A stretch of DNA of 64,000 nucleotides from an uncultured Spirochaetia bacterium (GTDB lineage Bacteria > Spirochaetota > JAHITG01 > CAZBCL01). A program made the position numbers and the translations under genes. The DNA lies in contig CAZBCL010000001.1 of the NCBI GenBank assembly GCA_964490645.1, positions 7,659 through 71,658 of the forward strand, in the 5' to 3' direction. This document shows positions 5,992 to 43,008 of the stretch, piece after piece. Within the stretch, counting starts at the first letter, position 1, and each line of letters starts with the position of its first letter. A model generated the notes under the pieces. That model was not told the DNA's origin. It did not search any database and saw only the letters and a program-made list of their open reading frames with translations.

Positions 5992-6138
5992 TATTATCTC
6001 CGCGTTTTATGTTATGTATTAAATTAATATCATTTCAATCAATTAGCAAGCTGTTCGGCTGATTTTATTAATTGAATTCTTCATAAAAAACAGAAAGAAA
6101 GTATACCATGATACCTGCATTACAGTAGTTGTTGCAGA

Positions 6139-6486
6139 TTATTGGAATAATCTTTCAATTTCCAATATGCTTTTTATACATTGATTGACTGATTGCGGAT
6201 TGTTTGACAAACGTTCGCATTTTTTCAGAAATGTATTTTTATTAAACTTAAATTGATTTACATCTTTTAAAAATAAATCGCTTACAAAAACATCTAATGC
6301 ACGTGCAATTTTCTCAATTGTAAATATTGTAATATTTGTATTTCCTCGTTCAATTTCACCGAGATACGCTGCTCCAAGATCAGCTTTTTCTGCAAGAGCT
6401 TCAATAGTTATATTATTGCTTTTCCGGTACTTTCTGATATTATTTCCGACAAGTCTTGCCAAACCTGATGATGTTTTGCGGGTCAT
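6139..6486 (-). CDS. XRE-family helix-turn-helix transcriptional regulator
   Basis: HTH_XRE signature (…IRKYRKSNNITIEALAEKADLGAAYLGEIERGNTNITIFTIEKIARALDV). The track ORF begins at 6543, but the internal ATG at 6486 (MTRKTSSG…) gives a typical XRE N-terminus. Confidence 0.7.
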   Translation of the reverse strand: MTRKTSSGLARLVGNNIRKYRKSNNITIEALAEKADLGAAYLGEIERGNTNITIFTIEKIARALDVFVSDLFLKDVNQFKFNKNTFLKKCERLSNNPQSVNQCIKSILEIERLFQ

Positions 6487-6717
6487 CCTTATTAAAACTC
6501 CCAGTTTAAATATTATTTTACTATAATTAAAACCACTTTCCACTTCTTATAACGAATAATATTGTCATATATACTTGACATATTGACTATTTTTATATAT
6601 TGTATTCAATATACAGGTTATTATAACTATTAATGATAGATATAGTAATGAATATAAACTTGTATTAAATTTTCTTAATTGACCTTTTAATACAAGCAAT
6701 CCTGTGAGGAGAACTAC

Positions 6718-7182
6718 ATGAAAACATTTTTATACATTATTACTATTGTATTAATTCTATTAACAACATCATGTGCCCCAAAAATTCGATTAGAAAATCA
6801 GACAGGGTATAATGGGGATTATATTATGGATGCAATGTCAATTTATTATTATAATGCAAAGGGATATGTTCAAGATATGAAGTTTTCATTTAATAATTCC
6901 GAACAGCTTTCCTTAAAAACATTAAATGTGGGAGAAAAAAGTGATTACGTAAAATGTGAAGCGGGGAAATTATCAGCAACACAATATACATATTATACAT
7001 TTGATCCAAATGAATATTATAATGCAACATCTGAAGAAACGTTAGGTGAATACAAAAAACTAAAGCGCATGAAAAAATATACATATTCTTTAAGAATGGG
7101 AACTCATGATTCAATATCCAGTCCGACATCATTGCACTATATTATTGAAGAAGAGCCTGCCGGCATTGGTATCTTTAAGTAA
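6718..7182 (+). CDS. hypothetical lipoprotein
   Basis: GAGGAG RBS 8 nt upstream. Signal peptide with lipobox (LLTTSC). No recognisable domain. Confidence 0.45.
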   Translation: MKTFLYIITIVLILLTTSCAPKIRLENQTGYNGDYIMDAMSIYYYNAKGYVQDMKFSFNNSEQLSLKTLNVGEKSDYVKCEAGKLSATQYTYYTFDPNEYYNATSEETLGEYKKLKRMKKYTYSLRMGTHDSISSPTSLHYIIEEEPAGIGIFK

Positions 7183-7262
7183 GAAATAGTGAATGGATGA
7201 AAGCAAAATAATAATGATGGAAAAGCATCTTCAAGCAATAAGCGTAATTATTGTAATTCTGA

Positions 7263-7817
7263 TTAAAAATAATACACTGATGTCAGGTAAATACTGCAAT
7301 ATGATTTCTTATAAAACAACGGTTTAAACCAATGCTGTTCATCATCGGTAAGGAAATAATTATATCGAATACCGGCTGAAAGCATCAAATCCCGCCATAT
7401 ATTAAACTCATATCCTGTGCCGGTGTTAATATAGTAATTCAATTCATCTTCTTTACCAAGAACCCCCGCACCGGTATCAAAGTGCCAATTCCAATACCAC
7501 TGAATATAACTTAAAAACTCAAATACCGTATACCATACTGCCGGCGAAGCTGCGGATGAATAAAAATTACCTCCGATTTCTATTAAAGCGCCGTTATAAA
7601 ACAATCCGTTATTTTCTTTTCCGAGCATGCGATACAATAATCCGCCACCGAACGTGGTATTCCCGTCACAAAAGACTATTGTTTCGGTTGAGATCCCCAA
7701 ACCAAGAGTACTATCAGGAAAACGATTGACCCCGAGCGAAGGCGCTTGTGCTAAACAGGGGGGTATGACACAAGCTATTCCGATAAAAAGTAAATAATAA
7801 CGTATGTTCATATTCAT
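7263..7817 (-). CDS. hypothetical secreted protein
   Basis: N-terminal signal peptide (MNMNIRYYLLFIGIACVIPPCLA). Aromatic/Gly-rich, 184 aa. Confidence 0.4.
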   Translation of the reverse strand: MNMNIRYYLLFIGIACVIPPCLAQAPSLGVNRFPDSTLGLGISTETIVFCDGNTTFGGGLLYRMLGKENNGLFYNGALIEIGGNFYSSAASPAVWYTVFEFLSYIQWYWNWHFDTGAGVLGKEDELNYYINTGTGYEFNIWRDLMLSAGIRYNYFLTDDEQHWFKPLFYKKSYCSIYLTSVYYF

Positions 7818-8023
7818 ACTCTAATAGTATACTGAAATTACGAAAAATGAAAAATATACTGTTGTATTCGGTTATATTTCTCCGGCAGTGCTGCCGAATG
7901 TATCAGTCCGTATCATACTCTAACAACTACTGCAGAATTAAATACCGCCTGCCGGAATTACGTACGATATAATAATATTTTACATGTTATTCCAACGCTC
8001 AGTTCAAATACTGATTATTATTA

Positions 8024-21981: not shown

Positions 21982-22571
21982 GCAGTATAAAACGGTTTGA
22001 ATCTGTTTATACATTTTTTAAGTATCGCCCTGTTTTATTCTATGTAACAATTTCAGCATGCATCCAATTACTGATACTCTTTCTCTGGCAGCTTCCGCAG
22101 GCAGGTAATGAATACTTTGACCAAACTGAATTGCTTGAAGTCATTGATATCACCGCACCGCCTGAATCATCACAAAAAGTTGATGAAGAAATAGAAATTA
22201 CTGACGACATTTCCGATGAGCCGAAGGAAGTATCGCCAAAACCATTAACAAAAATGACGCGCTCAACATTTGAAAGCTTTCTTTCACAATATCAGGTTAC
22301 CTCACTGCCGCGTCCACTCGGCTATCCCCCTAAACCCAAATATCCCGCAGCGGCACGTAATGCACAGATTGAGGGCACCGTTATTATTATGGCTGCATTT
22401 GATAGAAACGGACGCTTGATTCTCTACAAAGTCATGAAATCACTCGGATACGGGTGTAATGAAGCCGCCATTCAGGCTTTAAAAGCAACACAATTCGCAC
22501 CTGCATTAAAAGACGGTAAACCGGTACCGGCGCGAATGAATATTCGCTATGAGTTTACATTTGAGGATTAA
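21978..22571 (+). CDS. tonB: energy transducer TonB
   Basis: N-terminal TM, Pro/Glu-rich linker, C-terminal TonB domain (PKYPAAARNAQIEGTVIIMAAFDRNGRL…). Confidence 0.7.
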   Translation: MSSIKRFESVYTFFKYRPVLFYVTISACIQLLILFLWQLPQAGNEYFDQTELLEVIDITAPPESSQKVDEEIEITDDISDEPKEVSPKPLTKMTRSTFESFLSQYQVTSLPRPLGYPPKPKYPAAARNAQIEGTVIIMAAFDRNGRLILYKVMKSLGYGCNEAAIQALKATQFAPALKDGKPVPARMNIRYEFTFED

Positions 22572-22584
22572 GCAAGATTATATT

Positions 22585-25413
22585 ATGAAGCTGTTAATAA
22601 TTATTACTGTTACTGCTATTCTATTAATGCTGCCGATTATTGTATTCGCCGCTGACGGCACAATAACCGGTTCCATTACCGATTATGAAAGTGGAGACCC
22701 GCTTTGGGACGTTCTCATTAAGGTTCCCACCGCTCATGTTATAACAAACTCTGACTTTCAGGGAAACTATCAATTCACTTTGCCGGAAGGGAAACATGTC
22801 ATTACGTTCTCGGTTATGGGATATTCAACACTGATAAAACATATTACCATTACCGCTGATAAAACGGTCCTACTCAATGCTCGTATGTCCGTTTCAGAAC
22901 TCGCGACAGGACTTACTGTACAATCAACAACAACCGCACGTGAAGTAACCGTCTCACAAACAACCATAGAGAAAAAGCGTATTGACCATACCTCACGCGC
23001 AGGTTTTACCAGTGACATTACAACAACACTTAAAAAACTTCCCGGTGTTGCTTCAGACGGTACATTTTCCGGTGAACTGTATATACGCGGCGGAATGCCG
23101 CAGGAAAACCTTTTTATTCTCGATCGTGTTATTTTAACCTCCCCGTATAAATGGGACGGAATGATGACGCTGATTAATCCCGATGTTGTGAAAAAGGTAA
23201 ACTTTTATACCGGCGGTTTCCCCGCTGAATACGGACAGGCAATGTCAGGATTAATCCATTGCGAAACGCTCGACCCGCCGAAAGATCGTAAAACACATGG
23301 TCGGCTGAAAATGGATCCGGCAAATTTTAATTATTATCAGTACGGACCGCTCGCCGGTCCCGGCAATAACTCCGGCTATGTCGTCTCAAGCCGTGTTACC
23401 TATTATGATTTGGTTGCGGGGCTTTTCTTAAAATTAATGGAAGATGAAGATTTATACTCCTCAGGCACCCGTTTACCTTGGTTTTATGATGCATTCGGAA
23501 AGGTGTATTTAGATGTGCATCGTAAACATAAATTATTTTTCTCATCATTATGGTTTAATAACGGCACGAAATTAAAGTTTACTGAAAACGAAGTTGAAGA
23601 AAATACAAATAGCAACGATACATACACTTCCACCTATTCCATTAATGAACTTTTTAAATTCAGCGATACGACAACATATATTTCGGGAACATGGAAATAC
23701 ATCCCGGGAGATAAACTGACGGTATACACGACAACCAGCTGGGTCAGACAATCCGGATATAATATCTCTATTGATGATTATACCGATGACTGGTTTGAAA
23801 ATATTTCCGCATTCGGAATTACCAATATACTTCATGGGTATATCAGAAGTTATGAATATACAACCAATGAATTAAAACGTGATGAATATCAATTCTACGC
23901 TAATGCTCATTATGCTCCGGCAGCGTGGTACACCATCAATATTGGAACAACTATCATACCGTATACCATGACCTCCCGCGATATATCGGGATCATTCAAC
24001 GACGAATATGAGCATTATCAATTAGGCACCAATAGTGATAGCGTGCACGACAAGACAACGAAATATTCCTCTTTCAAAGATAAATTTAATAGTGTCTATG
24101 GTGCAGCTTTTGTTGAAAATGAAATCAGTATTATTCCGCAGCATTGGGTATTTCATCTCGGTATTCGTGAAACATATTATGAACGTACTCACCAGGCACT
24201 AACTGACCCGCGGTTGATGACAAAAATTACACTCTTTGACAATTGGGCTGTAAAACTCGCCGCCGGACAGTTCTCGCAATATTCGTTTGAAGAGACCAGT
24301 GATTCAAAATACGGCAATACGAAATTAAAAGCTGAAGAGTCACATCATTATATCGGAGGCATTGAAAAAATTATTGTGCCGCTTGATTTAAAAATCCGTT
24401 CGGAAGTTTTTTACAAGACGTATAACAATCTCATCGTTGAAGTTGAACAAAAAGAAGGAAACTATCAAAACTGGGCAATTGGTGAAACAAAAGGGTATGA
24501 ACTCTTTCTTGAAAAGTCGCTCAGTGAACATTTTGAAGGCTGGGTTGCCTATACGTATACCGATGCATGGCGAAAAATAACTTCAAAAGCACGAAACTCA
24601 AGTCTTGATACTGTTGACTTTTTTGAAAATACCTCACGAGTCAATGTCAAGTATGCTCCTAATAATCTTCAAAAACATATTTTGAGTGTCAATGTCGATT
24701 GCTACCTCACTGACTGGCTTATGGTAACAGCTGATTTTCGTTATCATACCGGCGCACCGTATACAAAAGTAGTCGGTCGAAAATATAAATATTATTCAGT
24801 AACAAATTTCATCTATAACGGTACACTGATTATTACAAACATTTCGACTGAAAGCAATCCCATGCCTAATTTTTCCGGTAACTTTCATGACGGAGCGATG
24901 CGCGATTATCACCGACTTAATCTCGGACTGAATATCAATACTACCTTACTCAAGGAAAAACATCGGGAAAAATATACCAATTCCATCGGCACAACAGAAC
25001 TCGCTCTCTATAACATGAGAGTTTCAAACATACTGAAACAATTATCAGAAACAACAAATAAAAAACAACGTTCAAAACTGCATAAAACATTAATAAAATA
25101 TATACAAGAGTATGATACTGTCCAAAATAAACTATGGAAATTTTCTGAAAACCCGCAATTACATAATCGCCTGCTCATGCGTGCAGAATATGCAGAAAAT
25201 AAAGAAAAAGCAGCACGGCTTTTCAAACGCTATGATCAAAAATTACAACCGAAACCGCATCTCCGCAAATCAACACTCTTTATTGATGTGATGAATGCAT
25301 ATAAAAACAAATCTCTTGAAATCGGCAAGTGGTATGATGCTCATTCCGGACAGTATAGATCACAAAACGATCTGCCGTTTATGGTTTTGGCCGGATTTAT
25401 GATTAAGTATTAA
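22585..25413 (+). CDS. TonB-dependent outer-membrane receptor with N-terminal carboxypeptidase-regulatory-like domain
   Basis: Signal peptide. CarbopepD_reg-like segment (GTITGSITDYESGDPLWDVLIKVP…GNYQFTLPEGKHVITFSVMGYS). Plug motifs (LKKLPGVASDG…LYIRGG…FILDRVIL). Long beta-barrel and a C-terminal aromatic (…GFMIKY). Likely start ATG at 22585 (MKLLIII…). Confidence 0.7.
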   Translation: MKLLIIITVTAILLMLPIIVFAADGTITGSITDYESGDPLWDVLIKVPTAHVITNSDFQGNYQFTLPEGKHVITFSVMGYSTLIKHITITADKTVLLNARMSVSELATGLTVQSTTTAREVTVSQTTIEKKRIDHTSRAGFTSDITTTLKKLPGVASDGTFSGELYIRGGMPQENLFILDRVILTSPYKWDGMMTLINPDVVKKVNFYTGGFPAEYGQAMSGLIHCETLDPPKDRKTHGRLKMDPANFNYYQYGPLAGPGNNSGYVVSSRVTYYDLVAGLFLKLMEDEDLYSSGTRLPWFYDAFGKVYLDVHRKHKLFFSSLWFNNGTKLKFTENEVEENTNSNDTYTSTYSINELFKFSDTTTYISGTWKYIPGDKLTVYTTTSWVRQSGYNISIDDYTDDWFENISAFGITNILHGYIRSYEYTTNELKRDEYQFYANAHYAPAAWYTINIGTTIIPYTMTSRDISGSFNDEYEHYQLGTNSDSVHDKTTKYSSFKDKFNSVYGAAFVENEISIIPQHWVFHLGIRETYYERTHQALTDPRLMTKITLFDNWAVKLAAGQFSQYSFEETSDSKYGNTKLKAEESHHYIGGIEKIIVPLDLKIRSEVFYKTYNNLIVEVEQKEGNYQNWAIGETKGYELFLEKSLSEHFEGWVAYTYTDAWRKITSKARNSSLDTVDFFENTSRVNVKYAPNNLQKHILSVNVDCYLTDWLMVTADFRYHTGAPYTKVVGRKYKYYSVTNFIYNGTLIITNISTESNPMPNFSGNFHDGAMRDYHRLNLGLNINTTLLKEKHREKYTNSIGTTELALYNMRVSNILKQLSETTNKKQRSKLHKTLIKYIQEYDTVQNKLWKFSENPQLHNRLLMRAEYAENKEKAARLFKRYDQKLQPKPHLRKSTLFIDVMNAYKNKSLEIGKWYDAHSGQYRSQNDLPFMVLAGFMIKY

Positions 25414-25471
25414 TCAATACAGATGGTTCTCGGTACTGATTTATTATTGATCTTTAAGTAAGGAGGACATT

Positions 25472-28309
25472 ATGAAACTCACTATTCTTCTCACTGCGGC
25501 ATCTATTCTATTAATGCTGCCGATTATTATATTCGCCGCTGACGGCACAATAACCGGTTCCGTTACCGATTATGAAAGCGGAGACCCGCTCTGGGATGTT
25601 CTCATTAACGTTCCGACCGCACATTTTACAACAAACTCTGATTTTCAGGGAAACTATCAATTCACCCTGCCGGAAGGAAAACATGTCATCAAGTTTTCGG
25701 TTATGGGATATTCAACACTCGTGAAGCATGTTACGATTACCGCTGATACAACATTAACACTCAACGCCCCCCTATCCGTTTCAGAACTGGCAACCGGGCT
25801 TATTGTACGATCAACAACAACAGCACGTGAAGTAACCGTTTCACAAACAACGATAGAAAAATCTCGTATCGATAATACCTCACGCGCAGGTTTTACCAGT
25901 GACATTACAACAACACTTAAAAAACTTCCCGGCGTTGCTTCAGACGGCACATTTTCCGGCGCCTTATATATTCGCGGGGGATCGCCATGGGAAAACCTCT
26001 TTATTCTCGACCGTGTTATTCTAACGTTTCCGTATAAATGGGGCGGATTAATAACGATGATTAATCCCGATATTGTAAAAAAGGTTAATTTTTATACCGG
26101 CGGTTTCCCCGCTGAATACGGACAGGCAATGTCAGGATTAATTCATTGTGAAACGCTTGATCCGCCGAAAGACCGTAAAACACATGGTCGCTTGAAAATG
26201 GATCCGGCAAATTTCAACTATTATCAGTACGGACCGCTCACCGGTATCGGCAACAATTCCGGTTATGTTATCTCAAGTCGTGCCACCTATTATGATCTGA
26301 TAGCACCAATCTTTATAAAAATGAGTGGAGATGGAGATATGAATACCGAGGGAATTCGATTTCCGTGGTTTTATGATGCATTCGGCAAAGTGTTTTTAGA
26401 TATTCATCGCAAACATAAATTAATATTCTCGTCATTATGTTTCAATGACGGGATGAAAATGACTTTTGACTCAACTCCCCCGGGACAAAATGATGATACA
26501 TATGGGAACGATGCATATAAGAGCATTGATGTTTCAGGATCGTTTCGATATAGTGATACAACAATGTACATGTCGGGAACATGGAAATACATCCCGGGAG
26601 ACAAACTGACGCTATACACAACAAGCAGCTGGATCCGCCAGTGGGGGCATTATAAATATAAACAAGGTGTTTACTTTTATGAATTGGACAACTTCACTGA
26701 AAACGGGACTAATTACGGACCGCACTATTCCTTCAAAGGTGATTATGACTATTGGATTGCGCATTTCCAACGCGATGAGTATCAGATTTATGCAAATGCG
26801 CATTACTCGCCGGCTGAGTATTATACCATCAATATTGGTACAACAATAATCCCATATCAGATAACGTATTGCGATAAAGAGGGTTTTTTACTTGATGACT
26901 ATGAAATCCATGGTAACGGCACAAACAGTTATTTAATACGCACACAAAAAATAGAACATTTCGGTTCAACCAATAATAATAAGAGTCTTTATGGAGCCGT
27001 TTTTCTTGAAAATGAGATTAGTATTATCCCACAGCGATGGATACTGCATGTGGGTATTCGTGAACATATTTTTCAACAAACCGGGCAGTCAATAACTGAG
27101 CCGCGCCTCATGACAAAAATAACCCTTTTTGATGGTTGGGATTTTAAACTTTCCGGCGGACGCTTCTCACAATTCCCCTTTATCGAAGCTAATAGTGATA
27201 CACAAGGAAATACAAAATTGCATGCTGAAGAATCATATCATTATATCGGCGGCATTGAAAAAATCATTCCATTCATAGATTTAAAAATCCGTTCAGAAGT
27301 TTTTTACAAGACCTATAATAATATCATTGTCGCAGTAGAACAAAAAGAAGGAAACTATCAAAATTGGGCAATCGGTGAAGCAAAAGGATATGAGCTTTTT
27401 CTTGAAAAGGCTTTAAGCAAACGCATTGAAGGCTGGTTTGCATATACCTATACTGAAGCATGGCGGAAGGTAACGTCAAAAGCAAATAATTCAAGTCTTG
27501 CAAATATCGCATTCTATCAAGATGCGCCACGTATCAATGTCAAATATGCCCCGGATAATCATCAAAAACATATTATAAATATCAATATTGATTATCATAT
27601 TACCAAATGGCTTATGGTTAATGCTGATTTTCGATATCATACCGGCGCCCCATATACCAAAATAGATAGCGTATATGCTGATTATTCATCAGTAACAAAT
27701 TTTTATGTCAGTAATGCAACACTCCTTTCGACCAATGTTATTACCGAAACGAATTATATTCCTACGTATTCTGATACATACCACGGCGAACGATTGAATG
27801 ATTATTATTGTCTTAATCTCGGTGTTAATTTCAACCAAACCCTATTTGAAGAACGACAGTATAAACGATATACAAATACTCTCGGTCCGAAAAAGCTTAT
27901 GGAGTATAACGACAAAATTGATATATATTTAAAACAGCTTTCCGAAACAACAAATAAACGAAAACAACACAAAATAAACACCGAATTATCACGCGCCATA
28001 ACGTGTTATGATAAAATTCAAAATAAACTATGGAAGTTTTCCGAAAACCCGCAACTGCATAATCGCCTGCTCATGCGAGCACAATACGAGGAAAACAAAC
28101 ACAAAGCGGCTCGTCTTGTTAAACGCTATGACAGAAAAATTCAACCGAAAGCACATCGGCAACAATGGACTATATATTTGAATGCAATCAATGCCCTCAA
28201 CAGTAAAAATGTCGAGCTTGGAAAATGGTTTGACAGCAGCAGCGGTGAAAATAAATCAGAGAAAGATCTGCCTTTAATTATACTCAGCGGATTTATGTTA
28301 AAATACTAG
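25472..28309 (+). CDS. TonB-dependent outer-membrane receptor, tandem paralog of the upstream gene
   Basis: Same architecture. The N-terminal roughly 250 aa are nearly identical to the upstream receptor. Strong RBS (AAGGAGG) before the ATG. Confidence 0.7.
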   Translation: MKLTILLTAASILLMLPIIIFAADGTITGSVTDYESGDPLWDVLINVPTAHFTTNSDFQGNYQFTLPEGKHVIKFSVMGYSTLVKHVTITADTTLTLNAPLSVSELATGLIVRSTTTAREVTVSQTTIEKSRIDNTSRAGFTSDITTTLKKLPGVASDGTFSGALYIRGGSPWENLFILDRVILTFPYKWGGLITMINPDIVKKVNFYTGGFPAEYGQAMSGLIHCETLDPPKDRKTHGRLKMDPANFNYYQYGPLTGIGNNSGYVISSRATYYDLIAPIFIKMSGDGDMNTEGIRFPWFYDAFGKVFLDIHRKHKLIFSSLCFNDGMKMTFDSTPPGQNDDTYGNDAYKSIDVSGSFRYSDTTMYMSGTWKYIPGDKLTLYTTSSWIRQWGHYKYKQGVYFYELDNFTENGTNYGPHYSFKGDYDYWIAHFQRDEYQIYANAHYSPAEYYTINIGTTIIPYQITYCDKEGFLLDDYEIHGNGTNSYLIRTQKIEHFGSTNNNKSLYGAVFLENEISIIPQRWILHVGIREHIFQQTGQSITEPRLMTKITLFDGWDFKLSGGRFSQFPFIEANSDTQGNTKLHAEESYHYIGGIEKIIPFIDLKIRSEVFYKTYNNIIVAVEQKEGNYQNWAIGEAKGYELFLEKALSKRIEGWFAYTYTEAWRKVTSKANNSSLANIAFYQDAPRINVKYAPDNHQKHIININIDYHITKWLMVNADFRYHTGAPYTKIDSVYADYSSVTNFYVSNATLLSTNVITETNYIPTYSDTYHGERLNDYYCLNLGVNFNQTLFEERQYKRYTNTLGPKKLMEYNDKIDIYLKQLSETTNKRKQHKINTELSRAITCYDKIQNKLWKFSENPQLHNRLLMRAQYEENKHKAARLVKRYDRKIQPKAHRQQWTIYLNAINALNSKNVELGKWFDSSSGENKSEKDLPLIILSGFMLKY

Positions 28310-30770: not shown

Positions 30771-33512
30771 TTATTTTGTGTCATTGTTGAGAGCCTTCTT
30801 ATTTTTACAGAACAAAACCGGATGTAAATTCATCCCCCATTTTTCTACCGCAAATATTGTTAACGCAGGAACAAAGATCAATGAATTAAATAAACACCAG
30901 ACAACCCCTTCACATAAAATAATACCCATTTCTGCTATCCCTTGGAATTTTGCGACCGCAAGTGCGCCGAATCCAAGTGCAGTAGTAGCAGTTGTCATAA
31001 TAACCGCACGCCCCGTTGATGCCAGCACATTCGGCATTGAGCCTATTCCTTCTTTCAAATAGCGATGGGCAATATGAACACCGTCATCAATACCAATACC
31101 GATAATGACCGGCACCACTAGAACTGTTACCATATTAAATTGTAATCCAAGAAATACCATTGTCCCTAACATAGATACGGTTCCTGCAACAAGCGGAACA
31201 ATAGCAATCATCACCTGCAGTAAGTTACGAAAATCTATTATCAATAACAGTGTTACCAGAACAAGCGCCAATAATACCGCTTTTGCGCCTTCAGCACGCG
31301 CAACAATAAGCAAATCCTGCATAAGCGGTGCCATGCCGGTTACATTCTCGGCTAAACCTCGCACTGTATTGATAAACGGATTATTATACATATCTTCAAA
31401 TATAGATCTTTTCGCATAGCAATTTATAAGATATTCATTTCCATCCTTACTGATAAACTGCTCTTTCACCGATTGTGGAACATCATTGAGAGTAATACGT
31501 GTCGGTGCTGCACTGCGTATCAGTAATTCCTTACCCGTTGCAAAAAATGTTTTTCTGAAATCAAACATCCATTTTTCAGAAGCAGCATTAATCCCCTGCA
31601 CTGAAGCCTGCAGTAGATTCACTCCTTCTGTATTTGTTTCATTTTCAAGATATCGATTACAGACAGCAACAATACGGTCAAGACCGGAAATAACCGCAAG
31701 TTGTCGAACATCACGGATATTCATCTCAAAACGTTGTATCTGATGAATCATTTCATTTTTAGTACCGGTCTCCTGCCACGACATCGTTTGAAATTGCTGT
31801 TGTAATTTTCGTACAACCGGTATGCGGCGTTTTTGTTCTTCGGTTGACGGCAGCATCAAAGCAAGTGATGAAACCATACCGACATTAGGCTCATCATCAA
31901 GCGTTCGTGTCAACGCTACCATCTCATTATAATTCGTTAGTGAAACGGATATATTTTGAGGGGATACTGAAAAGTCACGTTCAATTTGCCGTTGTAATTG
32001 TACCGCATCAAGTGATTGATCTTCGATATTTAAAAAATCAGTGTCAAATCCAACCCTGCTCCCAAAATATCCCAGCACGACGGTTATACCGAAACATATT
32101 ACAATAATGATTGCCGCATGCTTCTTAATATACCTGCCAAAGTCCTCAAGTTTTTTAAACCGAACATCAATCGGTTTTATCGTTGTTCCCTTACGTTGTC
32201 TCATCCCCTTTCCGAATAATGACAACATTGCCGGTAAAATCGTCATTGATACTATTAATGTAATCAAAATACCACTCGCCATTGCAAATCCAAACTCTTC
32301 CATCATTTTAAATCGTAATAACATTAACGTTGCAAATGCTAATGCAGTGGTCCCGCCGCCGGTTATCAGACCCGGTCCAACGGTCATTAAGGTACGGGGA
32401 ATGATTTCATCTTCCCTATAATTGCCAAAACGGAATTCCGAATATAATGAGATGATATGAATTGAAAAGTCAACTCCCAGCCCGATAAGTATTATTGAAC
32501 AAAACGCCGTCATTATATTAAGCTGGCCAATGGTAAGCCCCAATAGACCAAGTGCCAATATAACTGAAATTATCAGCGTTGCACCGGCAAGCAACGGTGC
32601 ATATACTTTTCGATATGTAAGTAAAAAAAGTATTAAAATAACCAAAAACGCAAATGGGGTCAGTCCGATCATATCCGTTTCACTTGTTTCCATTTCATCA
32701 CGTGCAAGCGGATGCATACCTGTTGCGCGAATACGAACACCGGGGTAGTGTTTTAAAATCTCCGCTCGGATTTTATCAAACCCTCTCATCATATTTATTG
32801 TTGCGTCCATATCATTCATCGTAATGACCGGTTGAGCAAACATAATCAGCATGCTTCTATCCTGTGACCAATACTCCATCGGTCCGATAACACAATCACG
32901 GATATCCTGCTGCAGTTCCGCTCTATTAATCGTTGTTGCCGGATGCGCAATACGTGAAAATATATCAGAGAGCTCATTGAGCACAGTAACAAGCTGATAT
33001 TCATCATCACTGACCGCATCTTCATTACCGCTGTATTCACGCTCAAAATCATCATTAATGTTTTTTAAATATTCCGCAAAGTTCATGTTTTTATTGATAC
33101 GAAAAAACCGATGTGCATCATTTGTTTTCATCATCATCAGTAAATGATGAGAATAAAAACCTCCTTCATTACGCCATTCACAATATTTAAACCATTGCTT
33201 TTCGGCACTAAGCCGATTACACAATTCAGCAGCAACAGCACGTATTTCTTTTTTATCCTCCCCTTCAATGCCAATAGTCATTTGCTGAAATGAACCATAT
33301 ATTTTCGATAATCGCTTGAATTCCTGCATTGAGGATGATGCATCCGGTATTATATCAAACCATGTCATTTTCAGCTCAAGTCGCATTGCGCCGATAACGG
33401 CAAGTGCAACCAATACAACGCCGATACCAATAATAACCCATGGATGCTTATGAATACATTCACCCATATTCCAAAAAAAACTATCCCGTGGTCGCAGATT
33501 GTTCTGTGTCAT
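30771..33512 (-). CDS. MMPL/RND-superfamily exporter (HpnN-like lipid transporter)
   Basis: 913 aa with two 6-TM bundles, each followed by a large periplasmic domain. SSD-like TM regions (…LTPFAFLVILILFLLTY…). Adjacent to TetR and the LolA-like lipoprotein. Confidence 0.8.
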   Translation of the reverse strand: MTQNNLRPRDSFFWNMGECIHKHPWVIIGIGVVLVALAVIGAMRLELKMTWFDIIPDASSSMQEFKRLSKIYGSFQQMTIGIEGEDKKEIRAVAAELCNRLSAEKQWFKYCEWRNEGGFYSHHLLMMMKTNDAHRFFRINKNMNFAEYLKNINDDFEREYSGNEDAVSDDEYQLVTVLNELSDIFSRIAHPATTINRAELQQDIRDCVIGPMEYWSQDRSMLIMFAQPVITMNDMDATINMMRGFDKIRAEILKHYPGVRIRATGMHPLARDEMETSETDMIGLTPFAFLVILILFLLTYRKVYAPLLAGATLIISVILALGLLGLTIGQLNIMTAFCSIILIGLGVDFSIHIISLYSEFRFGNYREDEIIPRTLMTVGPGLITGGGTTALAFATLMLLRFKMMEEFGFAMASGILITLIVSMTILPAMLSLFGKGMRQRKGTTIKPIDVRFKKLEDFGRYIKKHAAIIIVICFGITVVLGYFGSRVGFDTDFLNIEDQSLDAVQLQRQIERDFSVSPQNISVSLTNYNEMVALTRTLDDEPNVGMVSSLALMLPSTEEQKRRIPVVRKLQQQFQTMSWQETGTKNEMIHQIQRFEMNIRDVRQLAVISGLDRIVAVCNRYLENETNTEGVNLLQASVQGINAASEKWMFDFRKTFFATGKELLIRSAAPTRITLNDVPQSVKEQFISKDGNEYLINCYAKRSIFEDMYNNPFINTVRGLAENVTGMAPLMQDLLIVARAEGAKAVLLALVLVTLLLIIDFRNLLQVMIAIVPLVAGTVSMLGTMVFLGLQFNMVTVLVVPVIIGIGIDDGVHIAHRYLKEGIGSMPNVLASTGRAVIMTTATTALGFGALAVAKFQGIAEMGIILCEGVVWCLFNSLIFVPALTIFAVEKWGMNLHPVLFCKNKKALNNDTK

Positions 33513-33529
33513 ACTATTCCTCCAATATA

Positions 33530-34174
33530 TTATTTACTTGGTTTAACGAGTGCTCGTTTAATAATTTCCAGTGCTACCTTTTGATATTTCTTTGCATCAA
33601 ATTTCTGCCCCAATAATATTTTAATTGAAAGGCTGTCAATCATACCAAATAAAAGAAACGCAACCCGTTCCACATCGACACGATGAAACTCTCCTTTTTT
33701 GATGCCTTCATTAATTATTGTACTAAAAAACCGAACATGCCGATTATAAATACCGACCATCCCCTTAAGCGCATGCTTGCTTATTTTAGAACTCGTGATC
33801 ATTAATTCCATAAACAGCATAATATCATCCGAATTACTGAACGTAGAAAAAATGTTTATTATATATGTCCTTACTTTATCCCATACCGTTGGATATTCTA
33901 TTTCCTTCATGAATAAATTTTGTATTGTGCTCTCCATTACCGAGTGTGCAATTGAGAAAAATATTGTTTCTTTAGAATCAAAATATTCATATATTGTCCC
34001 TTTTGCTATTCCGGCGCGATCCGCAATATCAGAAATTTTCATATTATGAAATCCCTTTTCATAATAAACCTGCATTGCCGCCGTTAAAATATTTTGCCGT
34101 CGTTCTTCCTTATCAACATGCTTTGCATTCATCATTTTTTTGCATTGATCCTTTTTGTATTTCGTTTTATACAA
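33530..34174 (-). CDS. TetR/AcrR family transcriptional regulator
   Basis: TetR_N HTH (RRQNILTAAMQVYYEKGFHNMKISDIADRAGIAKGTIYEYFDSKETIF), 214 aa. Confidence 0.85.
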   Translation of the reverse strand: MYKTKYKKDQCKKMMNAKHVDKEERRQNILTAAMQVYYEKGFHNMKISDIADRAGIAKGTIYEYFDSKETIFFSIAHSVMESTIQNLFMKEIEYPTVWDKVRTYIINIFSTFSNSDDIMLFMELMITSSKISKHALKGMVGIYNRHVRFFSTIINEGIKKGEFHRVDVERVAFLLFGMIDSLSIKILLGQKFDAKKYQKVALEIIKRALVKPSK

Positions 34175-34375
34175 TACCGGTATAGAGGCATTCTATAATT
34201 TAATTAACTTTTAAAACATGTCCTATATTATTCTGCTGCATTTTTCCTCTGCTGCAATCAACAATTAGTGAATTGTGCAATTGGCGATAAAACATTTTAG
34301 CCTTCCACCGTTGTTGCCATCAACATTACGCACAATGCATTCATGCATCAGCACATACTGCCGATAACGTGCCTT

Positions 34376-34407
34376 TTATAAATGACTGACCAGTCAGTCA
34401 TTTATAA
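34376..34407. promoter_or_regulatory. 15-bp perfect inverted repeat; candidate TetR operator
   Basis: TTATAAATGACTGAC-ca-GTCAGTCATTTATAA, about 200 bp upstream of the tetR start, in the tetR/repeat-element intergenic region. Confidence 0.4.
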
Positions 34408-34509
34408 ATATATCCACGCCCTCCCATTATGTCAAGTATAATCTCAAGATATTTAGTGTAACGCTATACAATTAAAAAACGATTTGCCATGAATCAGCAT
34501 GAATGAGAA

Positions 34510-34795
34510 AAGACGATGCCCGGATATTTTTTTATTGAACGTTTTAGAGCATTACAGTATGAAAAGATTTTTATTCGATTGTCTGAAAACGTGTTTGAGA
34601 CGAGAAAGCAGATTGCGAAGTTTATTAATTTTACAATCGACAGCGGCTATACCAATCACTTGGCTATCAAACACCGAATGAATAATATTATCGAAACCAA
34701 AAATGCAGGGCGGCATAATGAAGAATTGCACCTTAAAAATCAAAAATAGTGGTCTTGACATATTGTGCCACTACATTAATATAATATTTTTAAGT
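34510..34795 (+). repeat. copy 1 of a roughly 275-bp dispersed direct repeat (about 92% identical to copy 2)
   Basis: Direct sequence comparison of 34517-34793 with 36045-36318. The conserved core is cgattgt(c/a)tgaaaacgtgtttgagacgagaaagcagattgcgaagtttatt…, ending in the hairpin-like agtggtcttgaCAtattgtGccact. Confidence 0.6.
34516..34749 (+). CDS. small hypothetical protein encoded in repeat copy 1 (coding status uncertain)
   Basis: 77-aa ORF (…FETRKQIAKFINFTIDSGYTNHLAIKHRMNNIIETKNAGRHNEELHLKNQK). Two synonymous differences (TAT/TAC Tyr, ACC/ACT Thr) in this frame relative to copy 2, but the N-termini differ through homopolymer indels. Confidence 0.3.
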   Translation: MPGYFFIERFRALQYEKIFIRLSENVFETRKQIAKFINFTIDSGYTNHLAIKHRMNNIIETKNAGRHNEELHLKNQK

Positions 34796-34927
34796 TAAAT
34801 TATTCCCCTATTAATTGAGCAAAGAATATGTTGAATGATTATTACTTATTAAGCACATTATTGAATTATCAGCCGATACGTTTGGAAATAAAATTAAGTA
34901 TTAAGTAAAGAGGAATAATATCGAATT

Positions 34928-35764
34928 ATGAAAAATATTATATTTATTTTATGTTTTCTAATGACGGGGCAATTGTTATTTTCGCAATCTGATTCAATAA
35001 ATAGTTTAATTAATGAAACAATGCTACATCCGGCAGATTCTTTTACCGGATACGTTTATAAAAAACATGAATGGGGGTATAATCAAGCATTAACACCATA
35101 CCCGAGTTGGGCTTGGTGGGGGATTACAGATAGGATTACGGCAGAACTTGATTTTGAAGCGTGGTTGGGAGGAGTTCCCAGTTTCAATTTTAGAATCGGA
35201 ATTATTAAAAATAATGATTGGATGCCTGCTATTGCTTTTGAGACTATGTATCAATTCTTAAGTGAAGAAAGAGACCAATTTGACAATCTTTCATATTTGA
35301 AAATTAGCAGGAAAGGGTCAAGCTGGTATAATCATATTAATTTGAGCTGGAAAATTAAAAATTCTATTCATTTTCACATTATGAACGGGGCTACTTATTC
35401 CGAAAATATTTTAATTTCAAATGGAGATAGTACAAATCATATTGGAAACTCTTATAAAAATATGCTTCATCCTGATTATTCATTTGGTATTGGTTGGAGA
35501 ATTCAAAAATGGATAACTTTGCATTCAACATATTCTTACGGTTCAACATTTCTTTATGCTGATAATATTCCGAGAAAACAACAATTTGTATTGGCAACAC
35601 GAGTGGCACCGTTTATAAAAAGTAAAAAAGGATTTTTCAACAGTTTCAGGTTTGAACTTGCTTTTTTATATGCAAAATTTATAGATGCAGATCAGTATAT
35701 ATCAGGACCAATAGGATTTTTTTATTGGCAATGGAATTGGGGTAAAAAAGACAGACAAAAATAG
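34928..35764 (+). CDS. hypothetical secreted (possibly outer-membrane) protein
   Basis: Signal peptide MKNIIFILCFLMTGQLLFS. Trp/Tyr-rich, 278 aa. Flanked by the two repeat copies. Confidence 0.45.
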   Translation: MKNIIFILCFLMTGQLLFSQSDSINSLINETMLHPADSFTGYVYKKHEWGYNQALTPYPSWAWWGITDRITAELDFEAWLGGVPSFNFRIGIIKNNDWMPAIAFETMYQFLSEERDQFDNLSYLKISRKGSSWYNHINLSWKIKNSIHFHIMNGATYSENILISNGDSTNHIGNSYKNMLHPDYSFGIGWRIQKWITLHSTYSYGSTFLYADNIPRKQQFVLATRVAPFIKSKKGFFNSFRFELAFLYAKFIDADQYISGPIGFFYWQWNWGKKDRQK

Positions 35765-36035
35765 AGTCGCACAACAATGTATATAAGATATAGCTCAAGT
35801 AGTTGTATACCGGATTACAATGAGAATATATTTAACAGAAAGAAATTGTTTTGAAATGCAACATATTTTATACTCACCATTAGAGGTCTAAACGCTCTCC
35901 ACTCTCCATTCCGATGTAAATTCATCACCTTCCTGTTTGAATTTACTGTTTTTATGGCGTAACTCCATATAATATAAAAAAGAAATTACCGTTAATTTTG
36001 AATGAAGCAAATATTTCAATCACCATAAACAGGAA

Positions 36036-36320
36036 AGGATGAGGTCCGGATATTTTTTTTATTGAACGTTTTTATAGTATTGCAGTATGAAAATATTTTT
36101 ATTCGATTGTATGAAAACGTGTTTGAGACGAGAAAGCAGATTGCGAAGTTTATTCATTTTACAATCGACAGCGGCTACACTAATCACTTGGCTATCAAAC
36201 ACCGAATGAAGTATATTATCGAAACCAAAAATGCAGGACAGCATAATGAAGAATTGCACCTTAAAAATTAAAAACAGTGGTCTTGATATATTGTACCACT
36301 ATAATAATACTTTTTTAAAG
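36036..36320 (+). repeat. copy 2 of the roughly 275-bp dispersed direct repeat
   Basis: See copy 1. Same orientation, 1.5 kb downstream. Confidence 0.6.
36062..36271 (+). CDS. small hypothetical protein encoded in repeat copy 2 (paralog of 34516..34749; coding status uncertain)
   Basis: 69-aa ORF (…YENVFETRKQIAKFIHFTIDSGYTNHLAIKHRMKYIIETKNAGQHNEELHLKN). Confidence 0.3.
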   Translation: MNVFIVLQYENIFIRLYENVFETRKQIAKFIHFTIDSGYTNHLAIKHRMKYIIETKNAGQHNEELHLKN

Positions 36321-36674
36321 AAAACTTACATTTAAATCGTTGCCCTTTATAATCCGATACTGTGTATATACGCAGCACTACCACGTAATGGTATTATTTA
36401 CCGATGGTTACTTGATAATAACAATATAAAATAGATTTGCAAATAAGTATTGCAAACAGCATGTATGATAACATATGAGTGTATGGTTTGTTTTTACCTT
36501 TTTGTTATCTACTTTTAATGAAGTGTTGGAACAAAATAACCGCATTAACAGTAATTGTCTTTGAATATTCGTCCTTTTATCGAACCACGGTTATGTATAC
36601 TCTGAACGTATGTATAACAATAAATGCCGATATTATTGATTCACCCTCTCTGCGAGACTCCTTGAATACTTCTA

Positions 36675-37025
36675 TCACATCCATTTACTGCGAAAAACAA
36701 AGTATACCGCACCTACCAAACATAAACCGGCCCAGAGATAATCCAATTTCAACGGTTCTTTCATATACATTACTGAAAATGGTATAAAAACACTGATGGT
36801 AATTATTTCCTGTATTACTTTTAGTTGTCCTAAATTTAAAACGGTAAAACCGATACGATTCGCCGGTATCTGCAGAATATATTCAAATAAAGCTATCCCC
36901 CAGCTAATGAAAATGACAATAAGTATTGGTTTATCATTATAATTTTTTAAATGCGCATACCAGGCAAATGTCATTATTATATTACTGCCAATTAGCAATA
37001 ATATTGTTGTTAAAACCGGTTTCAT
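36675..37025 (-). CDS. small DMT-superfamily membrane protein (DUF486-like)
   Basis: 116 aa, 4 TM, N-terminus MKPVLTTILLLIGSNIIMTFAWYAHLK typical of DUF486/DMT small proteins. Confidence 0.5.
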   Translation of the reverse strand: MKPVLTTILLLIGSNIIMTFAWYAHLKNYNDKPILIVIFISWGIALFEYILQIPANRIGFTVLNLGQLKVIQEIITISVFIPFSVMYMKEPLKLDYLWAGLCLVGAVYFVFRSKWM

Positions 37026-37251
37026 AATATACTTCTTTACTCATACACGATGAATTTATTTTTTCGTTTTATTTATTACAATAGAATGCTGCATGATAGT
37101 CATGCAGCGTATCTGATTATACAGCTTTATATATCATACCGGTAAAAGTCAATTATAAAATAAACCCGGATCGATATATTTTTGTCAAGCAAACTCTTAT
37201 AGCAACTATAAACAATACAGCGTAAAACAACAAAAAAAGGAACAACAAACC

Positions 37252-37300
37252 CTTGACAGATAGTTATATATAATATATTTATACACGTATAATATATATT
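37252..37300 (+). promoter_or_regulatory. sigma70-like promoter elements upstream of 37317 gene
   Basis: TTGACA at 37252, downstream TATAAT-like hexamers, then a strong RBS AAGGAGG 7 nt before the ATG at 37317. Confidence 0.3.
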
Positions 37301-37316
37301 AAGGAGGTTTCATCTA

Positions 37317-37973
37317 ATGAAACTAAAATCACTGGTATTAGTAAGCATATTTGTTTTGTATGCACAACTCTTTGGGATCGATACGACTGAAGTATTTGAA
37401 CCGGGACTATCCGATATTGAATATGCCGTGTCATGGAACTCACTATCAAAATTATTTGGTAATGAATTTCTTATCGGTTACGGATTTAAAAACTCCGTCT
37501 GTATCGGATTATCATGTGCTGCTGATGATTCAGATACCCACAGTGCAGGTGTTAGTGTTATCTATACCTGTATCGATAATGTCTTTTCACTTGATATTAT
37601 ATCAGGCTATACAAAAAAACTCGCCGTATCTGACGGAAAATATGCATTAGGGAGTGAAGCCGCATATAGAATTCATAATCACTATACCCCGTATACACGA
37701 ATTACTGCTGCAGCTGATACTACATTGAAGAGCTATTCCGGTACTATTGATCTCGGTTTTTCAGCAATACTGAATGATAAAACTGAAAGTTTACTGGAAT
37801 ATACGCTTGAATCCACAGGAAACAAAAACAAACTCGCGTCATCAATCGCCGTCGGTCTTAATATTGTCCTGACAGATACGATTGAAATGGTAGATGAGAT
37901 TCGGTACTTTTCATCGCCCGATAATACCATAAATCCTATATCAATCACCATTGGTATTATTGCAACAGTATAA
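37317..37973 (+). CDS. hypothetical secreted/outer-membrane protein
   Basis: Strong RBS. Signal peptide MKLKSLVLVSIFVLYAQLFG. 218 aa with alternating beta-strand-like pattern. Confidence 0.45.
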   Translation: MKLKSLVLVSIFVLYAQLFGIDTTEVFEPGLSDIEYAVSWNSLSKLFGNEFLIGYGFKNSVCIGLSCAADDSDTHSAGVSVIYTCIDNVFSLDIISGYTKKLAVSDGKYALGSEAAYRIHNHYTPYTRITAAADTTLKSYSGTIDLGFSAILNDKTESLLEYTLESTGNKNKLASSIAVGLNIVLTDTIEMVDEIRYFSSPDNTINPISITIGIIATV

Positions 37974-38186
37974 TTACCATTAAACGTATACGCGTGATCT
38001 CAGCACAATCAATTATTTGTAATACCTCGACAGTCCTGATAATTGATTATGCGTTTTACACTCGTTTCAATACGATATCTGCATGGGAGGTAATGTATTC
38101 TTTTACGAGCATGAGTATTATTCGTGAATGATAAAACAATCAGCATTATCGCAATCGTATCGGTTTCGGGCTAATCCAATACCCGT

Positions 38187-42646: not shown

Positions 42647-43008
42647 TAGTGAATACGGAGTATAAGCCGAATTCTGTCGTGGATCATCATTAATCTAGGA
42701 TGATTGTTGCCAATCACCTCATGCACCCTACCCGGGGTATCACGACGGGCAGCCGTGTATGTATAATACATATCCCCTGCTTGGGCTTGCTCCGAATGAG
42801 GTTTACCCTGCCGATGATGTTGCCATCAAAGCGGTGCGCTCTTACCGCACCATTTCACCCTTACCTGCAAAGCATAGGCGGTTTATTTTCTGCGGCACTG
42901 TCTGTAACGTGTGCACGTTCCCGGGAATTACCCGGCATCCTGCCCTGCGGAGTTCGGACTTTCCTCCATTATGTAATGTACATAACGGCGATGATCTCTC
43001 CGTATCCA
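42646..43008 (-). ncRNA. rnpB: RNase P RNA, bacterial type A
   Basis: The reverse complement shows the universally conserved elements: P4 5' strand GGAGGAAAGTCCGAACTCCGCAGGGCAGGATGCCGGGTAA; GGTAAGGGTGAAATGGTGCGGTAAGAGCGCACCG; GGTAAACCTCATTCGGAGCAAGCCCAAGCAGGGG; CCCGGGTAGGGTGCATGAGG; and the 3' CTAGATTAATGATGATCCACGACAGAATTCGGCTTATA. P1 pairing runs GGATACGGAG/CTCCGTATTC, and P3 is the hairpin TTATGTACATTACATAA. Confidence 0.88.

What the first reader, a model, noticed from the sequence alone, without database searches (positions are those of the whole stretch)
34510..36320. Two copies of a roughly 275-bp direct repeat, each with a conserved small ORF, bracketing a secreted-protein gene
34517-34793 and 36045-36318 are about 92% identical over roughly 275 bp, in the same orientation, 1.5 kb apart, flanking the 278-aa secreted protein gene. 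Each copy encodes a 65-75-aa ORF with a conserved core (…ENVFETRKQIAKFI.FTIDSGYTNHLAIKHRM…IETKNAG.HNEELHLKN) and ends in a hairpin-like element containing TTGACA…TATAAT-like hexamers reading toward the downstream gene. Substitutions include synonymous changes in the + frame (weak evidence of coding). All three forward frames are nonetheless open across the core, and the N-termini differ by T-run indels. It could be a duplicated small gene, a miniature repeat element, or a structured RNA. No transposase or TIRs were recognised.
Basis: seen in the sequence. Interest (0 to 1): 0.55.

Follow-up and report, generated by a model that had tools for sequence, protein, structure and literature searches.

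The report
Orphan 300-bp local duplication flanking a gene
A 300-base stretch of DNA has been copied once, 1.5 kb away, on either side of an outer-membrane protein gene in one uncultured Bacteroidota genome; nothing shows it to be a gene family, a mobile element or a structured RNA, so it is best read as an ordinary local duplication.

Summary
34492-34802 and 36018-36328 are direct repeats: 90% identity over 292 ungapped-like columns, 88% over 313 with gaps, 1526-1528 bp apart. They bracket a 278-aa gene that I predict to be an outer-membrane beta-barrel.

The interesting readings find no support:
- **Copy number.** Only these two copies exist in 73 kb of the contig. None was found in GTDB species genomes, JGI metagenomes, viral contigs, plasmids or phages.
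- **Coding.** The 77-aa ORF of copy A matches only itself among 5.8 billion protein clusters and in an exhaustive HMMER scan of 1.84 billion representatives. It has no Pfam, NCBIfam or PHROG match. In copy B the ATG start is lost and two 1-nt T-run insertions break the frame. pN/pS is 0.46 (p=0.24). Codon usage is ambiguous.
- **RNA.** Neither strand folds better than shuffles, and Rfam gives nothing at E<=5.
- **Mobility.** There are no terminal inverted repeats, target-site duplications or recombinase nearby.
- **Promoter.** Sigma-70-like sites occur at chance frequency.
- **Relatives.** Seven relatives carry the barrel gene in seven different neighbourhoods, none with the repeat.

One oddity remains. 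A 186-bp core is less diverged (4.8%) than the flanks (19%; permutation p=0.027). That fits either gene conversion or some constraint.

Verdict: a lineage-private segmental duplication of low interest.

The parts
34492..34802 (+). Repeat copy A (about 311 bp), 125 bp upstream of the 278-aa gene, in the 753-bp divergent intergenic region next to the TetR gene
36018..36328 (+). Repeat copy B (about 311 bp), 253 bp downstream of the 278-aa gene stop, in the 910-bp convergent intergenic region before the DMT_6 gene
34555..34740 (+). Less-diverged core of the repeat in copy A coordinates. It has 9 differences in 186 columns (4.8%) against 20 in 106 (19%) outside. The matching stretch in copy B is 36083-36268.
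   Evidence: scan-statistic permutation p=0.027
34516..34749 (+). Orphan 77-aa ORF of copy A (ATG start). Gene callers called it (P0001). There are no homologs and its coding status is unproven.
36062..36271 (+). 69-aa TTG-start open frame of copy B. The homologous ATG is lost (ATG to AGG). An upstream in-frame ATG at 36039 runs into a stop after 8 codons because of a +1 T insertion. No gene is called here in the public assembly.
34928..35764 (+). Bracketed gene: a 278-aa protein with a signal-peptide-like N-terminus, predicted to be an outer-membrane beta-barrel of an uncharacterised Bacteroidota family
34877..34884 (+). TACGTTTG, a match to the Bacteroidota -7 promoter box. It lies 44 nt upstream of the 278-aa ATG and downstream of copy A, so the gene need not depend on the repeat for transcription (inference).

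Best explanation
This is a lineage-private local segmental duplication.

A segment of about 300 bp of AT-rich, mostly non-coding DNA next to an outer-membrane barrel gene was copied once, in direct orientation, about 1.53 kb away. The likeliest route (inferred) is a tandem duplication of a unit of about 1.53 kb [repeat + barrel gene + spacer], followed by loss of most of the second unit. Alternatively, the barrel gene was placed here by a recombination event that duplicated the flank.

The copies have since drifted to about 10% divergence, with two 1-nt slippage indels in T-runs. The 65-77-codon 'conserved ORF' in both copies follows simply from 95% nucleotide identity in the core. It is not evidence of a gene family. 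Copy B has lost the start codon and the reading frame at its 5' end.

The lower divergence of the core is most simply explained by a gene-conversion tract between the two nearby copies (inferred). The only mechanistic consequence I would predict is passive. With exact matches of up to 43 bp, the two copies are a substrate for RecA-dependent loop-out deletion or tandem amplification of the barrel gene (inferred, not shown).
For: **Repeat and copy number**
- The repeat is real and has exactly two copies in the 64-kb window, with none in a further 9.3 kb of the same contig.
- There is no copy in 185,579 GTDB species genomes or in JGI metagenomes, by exact 20-mer and by degenerate peptide patterns.
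- There is none in viral contigs, plasmids or phages.

**Coding**
- The ORF matches only itself in 5.8 billion clusters and in an exhaustive HMMER scan of 1.84 billion representatives.
- There is no Pfam, NCBIfam or PHROG match for any of the unit's ORFs.
- Copy B's start and frame are disrupted, and no gene is called there.
- No codon-position bias is seen in any frame, and pN/pS of 0.46 is not significant.

**RNA and regulatory signals**
- There is no excess RNA structure: z is +0.7 and +1.7 for the whole unit, and -0.4 to -1.2 for parts.
- Rfam finds nothing, even at E<=5.

**Mobility and context**
- No terminal inverted repeats are found, and no integrase or transposase lies within +/-10 kb.
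- The locus is a GC trough with unusually long non-coding stretches, consistent with a rearranged or decaying region.
- In seven relatives the barrel gene sits in seven different, tightly packed neighbourhoods, without the repeat or any flanking direct repeat.
Against: - Divergence is not uniform: the core is at 4.8% and the flanks at 19% (p=0.027 after correcting for the post hoc choice of window). Pure neutral drift after one duplication predicts uniformity. Gene conversion explains the pattern, but so does constraint on a function.
- Copy A's ORF has codon usage as good as that of the genuine barrel gene (0.076 vs 0.084). Only 7.5% of spurious ORFs score as high.
- Copy number in the rest of this genome (about 260 kb of the contig, plus other contigs) could not be examined.
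- No close relative genome exists in the databases. The neighbouring MMPL gene has no homolog above 33% identity apart from a 100% identical copy. The ancestral state of the locus therefore cannot be reconstructed.
Confidence: 0.6

Rival explanations
1. Copy A encodes a genuine, lineage-specific small protein of 77 aa, predicted all-helical. Copy B is its decaying or alternatively initiated paralog. The repeat is then a duplicated small gene with its weak terminator hairpin.
For: - Prodigal-type callers call the ORF (P0001).
- It is the frame with the best codon usage among the unit's open frames and scores like the neighbouring real gene.
- pN/pS of 0.46 is below 1.
- A hairpin follows directly after the stop codon.
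- A 77-codon open frame in 32%-GC intergenic DNA is moderately unusual (inference).
Against: - There are zero homologs in about 15 billion proteins, by both word-indexed and exhaustive searches. Degenerate-pattern DNA scans also find no uncalled copies.
- Copy B has lost its ATG and is frameshifted twice.
- pN/pS is not significantly different from 1 (p=0.24).
- AF2 gives a single long helix, confident in only 1 of 5 models, which is not a compact fold.
- 7.5% of spurious ORFs score as well on codon usage.
Confidence: 0.2
2. The conserved core is a non-coding functional element. It could be a small RNA or leader, or a protein-binding DNA site, present on both sides of the outer-membrane barrel gene and regulating it or its neighbours.
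For: - The core is significantly less diverged than the flanks without a protein-level selection signature.
- A Bacteroidota-type -7 box lies 18 nt upstream of copy B.
- Two 8-9-nt inverted repeat pairs are kept in both copies.
Against: - Folding energy is no better than shuffles on either strand or for sub-regions.
- There is no Rfam hit at E<=5.
- The 8-mer inverted repeats are at about the number expected by chance in 300 nt (inference), and no compensatory change is seen.
- The -7 box is not shared by copy A, and the motif is not enriched in the window, 66 vs 80 expected.
- With two sequences, covariation cannot be tested.
Confidence: 0.1
3. The unit is a non-autonomous mobile or REP-like interspersed repeat of this genome. 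Two copies happened to land on either side of the gene, or together form a composite that moved the gene.
For: - It is AT-rich, about 300 bp, intergenic and without a transposase, which is in the size range of MITEs (PMC4596501).
- The barrel gene has a different neighbourhood in every relative.
Against: - There are no terminal inverted repeats and no target-site duplications at either boundary.
- Only 2 copies occur in 73 kb, both within 2 kb. None is found in any collection.
- No transposase or integrase lies within +/-10 kb.
- The ends of the two copies fade into dissimilarity rather than stopping sharply.
Confidence: 0.05
4. The repeat is a metagenome assembly artefact, with two strain variants of one locus stitched in series.
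For: The source is a MEGAHIT metagenome contig (k141_461477), and 90% identity is in the range of strain or species variants.
Against: - The longest exact match between the copies is 43 nt, far below k=141. The assembler therefore had no shared k-mer through which to join or confuse them.
- The intervening 1.2 kb is a complete, conserved gene.
- The ORF-A protein with the same neighbours is recorded on 3 contigs, at least one of which breaks at different places (69 kb vs 330 kb). That suggests an independent assembly. Copy B itself could not be verified there.
Confidence: 0.03

Closest known systems
Ordinary segmental or tandem duplication remnants (paralogous intergenic segments) in bacterial chromosomes
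   Same: There are two direct copies close together and no mobility machinery. Divergence is by point changes and homopolymer slippage, and the copies form a recombination substrate bracketing a gene.
   Different: The core-versus-flank divergence gradient needs an extra assumption, either gene conversion or constraint. The duplicated segment carries an intact orphan ORF in one copy.
MITEs of Bacteroidota (for example the BrickBuilt and PgRS elements of Porphyromonas gingivalis, PMC4596501)
   Same: The unit is short (50-1000 bp), AT-rich, intergenic and has no transposase.
   Different: It has no TIRs, no TSDs and no dispersed multi-copy family (typically 10-20 copies per bacterial genome), and it matches no IS element end.
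attL/attR-type direct repeats flanking integrated islets
   Same: Direct repeats bracket a gene whose genomic position is not conserved among relatives.
   Different: att repeats are usually short and identical and come with an integrase or a tRNA target. Here the repeats are 300 bp and 90% identical, no recombinase lies within 10 kb, and Rfam finds no RNA gene next to the repeats (no dedicated tRNA scan was run).
Orphan (taxonomically restricted) small ORFs or de novo genes
   Same: The 77-codon ORF has no detectable homolog, a helical prediction and borderline codon usage.
   Different: There is no expression or selection evidence, and the paralogous copy is already disrupted.

Membership tests
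MITE / non-autonomous transposable element | Terminal inverted repeats at the element ends | tested here: not met
   Inverted-repeat search with 6-nt seeds on both copies finds no pair joining the two ends. The best is a 20-nt, 75% pair in copy B only, with its left arm 51 nt inside the element.
MITE / non-autonomous transposable element | Target-site duplications flanking each copy | tested here: not met
   The flanks, read directly, are CCATG|...|AATAT or TTCCC for copy A, and ATTTC|...|TTTTT or TTGCC for copy B. No duplicated bases appear at either candidate boundary.
MITE / non-autonomous transposable element | Multiple dispersed copies per genome (about 10-20 in bacteria, PMC4596501) | tested here: inconclusive
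   Only 2 copies occur in 73 kb of the contig, both within 2 kb, and none in any public collection searched. The rest of this genome could not be read.
Structured non-coding RNA (any Rfam family or a new one) | Match to a curated covariance model | tested here: not met
   Rfam 15 finds only RNase P elsewhere at gathering thresholds, and gives 0 hits at E<=5 on 34150-37350.
Structured non-coding RNA (any Rfam family or a new one) | Thermodynamic stability above composition-matched shuffles, or covariation | tested here: not met
   z-scores are +0.72 (+ strand) and +1.67 (- strand) for the unit, and -0.4 to -1.2 for the hairpin and core. Covariation is untestable with two 90-95% identical copies.
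Conserved small protein family | Homologs in other genomes, or a purifying-selection signature | tested here: not met
   Only a self-hit appears, and there is no family-library hit. pN/pS is 0.46, p=0.24.
Conserved small protein family | Intact start and frame in each paralog | tested here: not met
   In copy B the ATG is replaced by AGG. The upstream ATG (36039) terminates after 8 codons, and two +1 T insertions are present.
Integrated element with att direct repeats | Site-specific recombinase nearby, or a tRNA/tmRNA target | tested here: not met
   Pfam annotations of all called genes within +/-10 kb show no integrase, recombinase or transposase. The Rfam scans report no RNA gene at or next to the repeats; ARAGORN was not run.
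Sigma-70 promoter module | Hexamer matches above the chance level, conserved in both copies | tested here: not met
   22 sites are found against 22.2 +/- 5.5 in shuffles. Copy A scores 10/12 and copy B 9/12, with different spacing.

The most novel reading that the evidence does not exclude
The less-diverged 186-bp core is under selection as a lineage-specific functional element. It would be either a de novo 77-aa helical small protein or a small RNA or leader, kept on both sides of an uncharacterised outer-membrane barrel gene and controlling that gene. Small RNAs control porins in Proteobacteria in a comparable way. Alternatively, it could serve as a recombination switch that deletes or amplifies the gene.
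Probability: 0.1. Interest if true: 0.4.

Novelty: new member of a known kind. Interest (0 to 1): 0.12.

Why it matters
It matters little as it stands. This is one more private duplication in a rearranged, AT-rich stretch of an uncultured Bacteroidota genome. Its practical value is negative. The 'conserved small ORF' should not be propagated as a gene family. The repeat should not be catalogued as a mobile element or RNA family. If the core turned out to be functional, it would be a rare case of a taxonomically restricted regulator next to an uncharacterised outer-membrane barrel family. With only two copies in one genome there is no comparative handle to pursue that.

Tried and rejected
- **Known RNA family.** Rfam at gathering thresholds on the whole window, and at E<=5 on the locus, found nothing.
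- **Stable RNA structure.** Folds of the whole unit on both strands, the 3' hairpins and the cores were no better than shuffles.
- **Protein homology of the ORF.** I tried a word-indexed search, an exhaustive HMMER profile search, Pfam, NCBIfam and PHROGs, also on the second forward ORF and the reverse-strand ORFs. Only self-hits came back.
- **Structure of the 77-aa ORF.** AF2 gave one long helix in one confident model out of five. This is uninformative, so I did not send it to fold search.
- **More copies by DNA.** I searched the window, 9.3 kb beyond it, GTDB genomes, JGI metagenomes (an exact 20-mer and degenerate patterns), viral contigs, plasmids and phages. There were none.
- **Synteny route to the ancestral state.** The MMPL neighbour has no relative above 33% identity. 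The barrel gene's seven closest relatives all have different neighbourhoods and no repeat.
- **Fragment of another gene.** tblastx of the unit against the window found nothing. The 278-aa and 218-aa flanking secreted proteins are not paralogs.
- **Independent assembly.** The look-up of the JGI/GEM contig through P0077 failed, as did the right-edge extension.
- **Literature.** A search for similar repeat/ORF arrangements in Bacteroidota gave only general MITE work.

Full report
**1. The observation**

The region contains a genuine direct repeat. The repeat finder reports a 258-nt pair at 90% plus a 42-nt extension, with spacing of 1526-1528 bp. BLASTN gives 34492-34781 vs 36018-36309: 292 columns, 90.1%, E about 1e-110. 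A more permissive gapped alignment carries it to 34492-34802 / 36018-36328: 313 columns, 88%. Nothing else in the two intergenic regions is alike.

The copies bracket the 278-aa ORF at 34928-35764. Copy A carries a 77-aa ATG ORF (34516-34749). Copy B carries a 69-aa TTG ORF (36062-36271), 84% identical. Two single-T insertions in T-runs separate the 5' parts.

- One of the three forward frames is full of stops, 9 in copy A and 7 in copy B.
- The 3' hairpins are weak and no better than shuffles.
- Sigma-70-like hexamer pairs occur at exactly the chance rate in this AT-rich stretch, 22 vs 22.2.

**2. Provenance and context**

The window is part of a 330-kb MEGAHIT contig from an ENA metagenome assembly. 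Homologs of the bracketed gene come from Marinilabiliales, Salinivirgaceae, Paludibacteraceae and other Bacteroidales MAGs, so the host is most likely a member of Bacteroidota.

Copy A lies in a 753-bp divergent intergenic region next to a TetR gene. That gene heads a TetR-MMPL-LolA-like operon on the minus strand. Copy B lies in a 910-bp convergent region before a DMT_6 (DUF486) gene. The interval from 33 to 38 kb is a GC trough, about 32% against 39-43% elsewhere, with three unusually long non-coding stretches. No integrase, transposase or recombinase is annotated within +/-10 kb.

**3. Is it a gene?**

Comparative evidence is negative:
- The 77-aa ORF finds only itself among 5.8 billion protein clusters.
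- A profile of both copies finds only that same protein in an exhaustive HMMER pass over 1.84 billion representatives.
- Pfam, NCBIfam and PHROGs give nothing for this ORF, for the alternative forward ORF or for the reverse-strand ORFs.
- Degenerate back-translated patterns, confirmed by tblastn, would also catch uncalled copies. They find nothing in GTDB species genomes, JGI metagenomes or IMG/VR.

The two copies themselves give little:
- They differ by 4 synonymous and 8 non-synonymous changes in the shared frame. pN/pS is 0.46, p=0.24. No frame shows a third-position excess.
- In copy B the ATG is AGG. An in-frame ATG three bases upstream hits a stop after 8 codons because of the first T insertion, and the second insertion shifts the frame again. 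The public gene calls have no gene there.
- Codon usage is the one point in favour. The ORF-A frame scores 0.076, like the genuine barrel gene (0.084) and clearly better than the unit's other open frames. However, 7.5% of spurious open stretches in the window do as well.
- AlphaFold gives one long helix, confident in only one of five models. That is what low-information sequences often give.

My conclusion is that 'conserved ORF in both copies' follows from 95% nucleotide identity. Coding of copy A is unproven but not excluded.

**4. Is it an RNA or a regulatory module?**

- The only Rfam hit in the window is RNase P at 42647-43007. At E<=5 the locus has none.
- The MFE of the unit is no lower than that of dinucleotide shuffles on either strand (z +0.72 and +1.67). 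The cores and the hairpins give z from -0.4 to -1.2.
- A Bacteroidota-type -7 box (TACGTTTG) lies 44 nt upstream of the barrel gene's ATG, downstream of copy A. The gene therefore has a plausible promoter of its own.
- Another such box lies 18 nt upstream of copy B but has no counterpart at copy A. The motif is not enriched in the window overall.

**5. Is it mobile?**

- No terminal inverted repeats join the ends.
- No target-site duplication appears at either candidate boundary.
- The ends fade rather than stop sharply.
- Only two copies occur in 73 kb, both within 2 kb.
- There are no matches in plasmids, phages or viral contigs.

These are the defining MITE features as summarised in PMC4596501. 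Two are tested and not met. Copy number is inconclusive because the rest of the genome is out of reach.

**6. Comparative context of the bracketed gene**

The 278-aa protein belongs to a family of at least 75 clusters with no Pfam domain. With a 42-sequence alignment AlphaFold gives pLDDT 86 and pTM 0.79, an N-terminal signal-like helix and an all-beta barrel. Foldseek's best PDB matches are outer-membrane barrels: FapF and NanC at TM about 0.5, then OpcA, NalP and FadL-type. There is no sequence-level PDB match.

In the seven closest relatives examined, the gene sits in seven different neighbourhoods, usually packed tightly behind an upstream gene. None has the repeat unit or any direct repeat around the gene. 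The neighbouring MMPL gene has no homolog above 33% identity apart from a 100% copy on a 69-kb JGI/GEM contig, and GTDB holds no close relative. The ancestral state of the locus therefore cannot be reconstructed.

**7. The one unexplained feature**

Divergence is uneven: 15 differences in 77 columns at the 5' end, 9 in 175 in the middle and 5 in 40 at the 3' end. A scan statistic with permutation allows for the post hoc choice of window. It picks a 186-column core (34555-34740) and gives p=0.027.

There is no protein-level selection signal, so the simplest account is a gene-conversion tract between two copies 1.5 kb apart. Constraint on an unknown DNA- or RNA-level function is the alternative.

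**8. Artefact check**

The longest exact match between the copies is 43 nt, well below the assembler's k of 141, so the assembly graph could not have confused them. The ORF-A protein with the same neighbours is on three contigs, whose lengths differ between look-ups. That suggests at least one independent assembly. I could not retrieve that contig to verify copy B.

**9. Verdict**

This is a real, non-random repeat and an ordinary one: a lineage-private local duplication in a rearranged, AT-rich patch.

Inferred mechanism: a tandem duplication of a unit of about 1.53 kb with loss of most of the second unit, or a flank-duplicating recombination that placed the barrel gene here. Drift, homopolymer slippage and probably a conversion tract followed.

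Its only predictable activity is passive, as a homologous-recombination substrate for deletion or amplification of the barrel gene. My confidence in this reading is about 0.6. A genuine orphan small gene gets about 0.2, a non-coding functional core about 0.1, a mobile element about 0.05 and an artefact about 0.03. Interest is low.

Noticed in passing
window 34375-34408: A 34-nt near-perfect palindrome (TTTATAAATGACTGAC-CA-GTCAGTCATTTATAAA) lies between the TetR gene and repeat copy A. It is overlapped by the best sigma-70-like site of the region on the minus strand (TTGACA-17-TATATT, 34435 to 34407, 11/12). It is probably the TetR operator and promoter of the TetR-MMPL operon.
   Followed up: partly
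window 34928-35764: The bracketed 278-aa protein belongs to an uncharacterised Bacteroidota family (at least 75 clusters, no Pfam domain). It is confidently predicted to be an outer-membrane beta-barrel (pLDDT 86; FapF/NanC-like by Foldseek, TM about 0.5). Its genomic neighbourhood differs in all seven relatives inspected.
   Followed up: partly
window 30771-33512 (-): This is an MMPL/RND-type transporter in an operon with TetR, a TP_0789/LolA-like protein and a 463-aa unknown. Its best non-self homolog is only 32-33% identical and comes from other phyla (Calditrichaeota, WOR-3, Zixibacteria), so the operon may be horizontally acquired or very fast-evolving.
   Followed up: no
window 33000-38000 and 6000-8000: There are local GC troughs of about 32% against 39-43% elsewhere. 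The first holds three unusually long non-coding stretches (34175-34927, 35765-36674, 37026-37316), suggesting a rearranged or decaying region.
   Followed up: partly
window 42647-43007 (-): A bacterial RNase P RNA class A is present (298.8 bits). It is overlapped by spurious ORF calls, including a 95-aa 'gene' in the public annotation.
   Followed up: no
window 37317-37973 (+): A second signal-peptide-bearing 218-aa protein has no Pfam or NCBIfam match. It is not a paralog of the 278-aa barrel protein.
   Followed up: partly
window 22549-28309 (+): Two tandem TonB-dependent receptor-like genes (CarbopepD_reg_2 + Plug, 954 and 945 aa) lie upstream of the MMPL operon.
   Followed up: no
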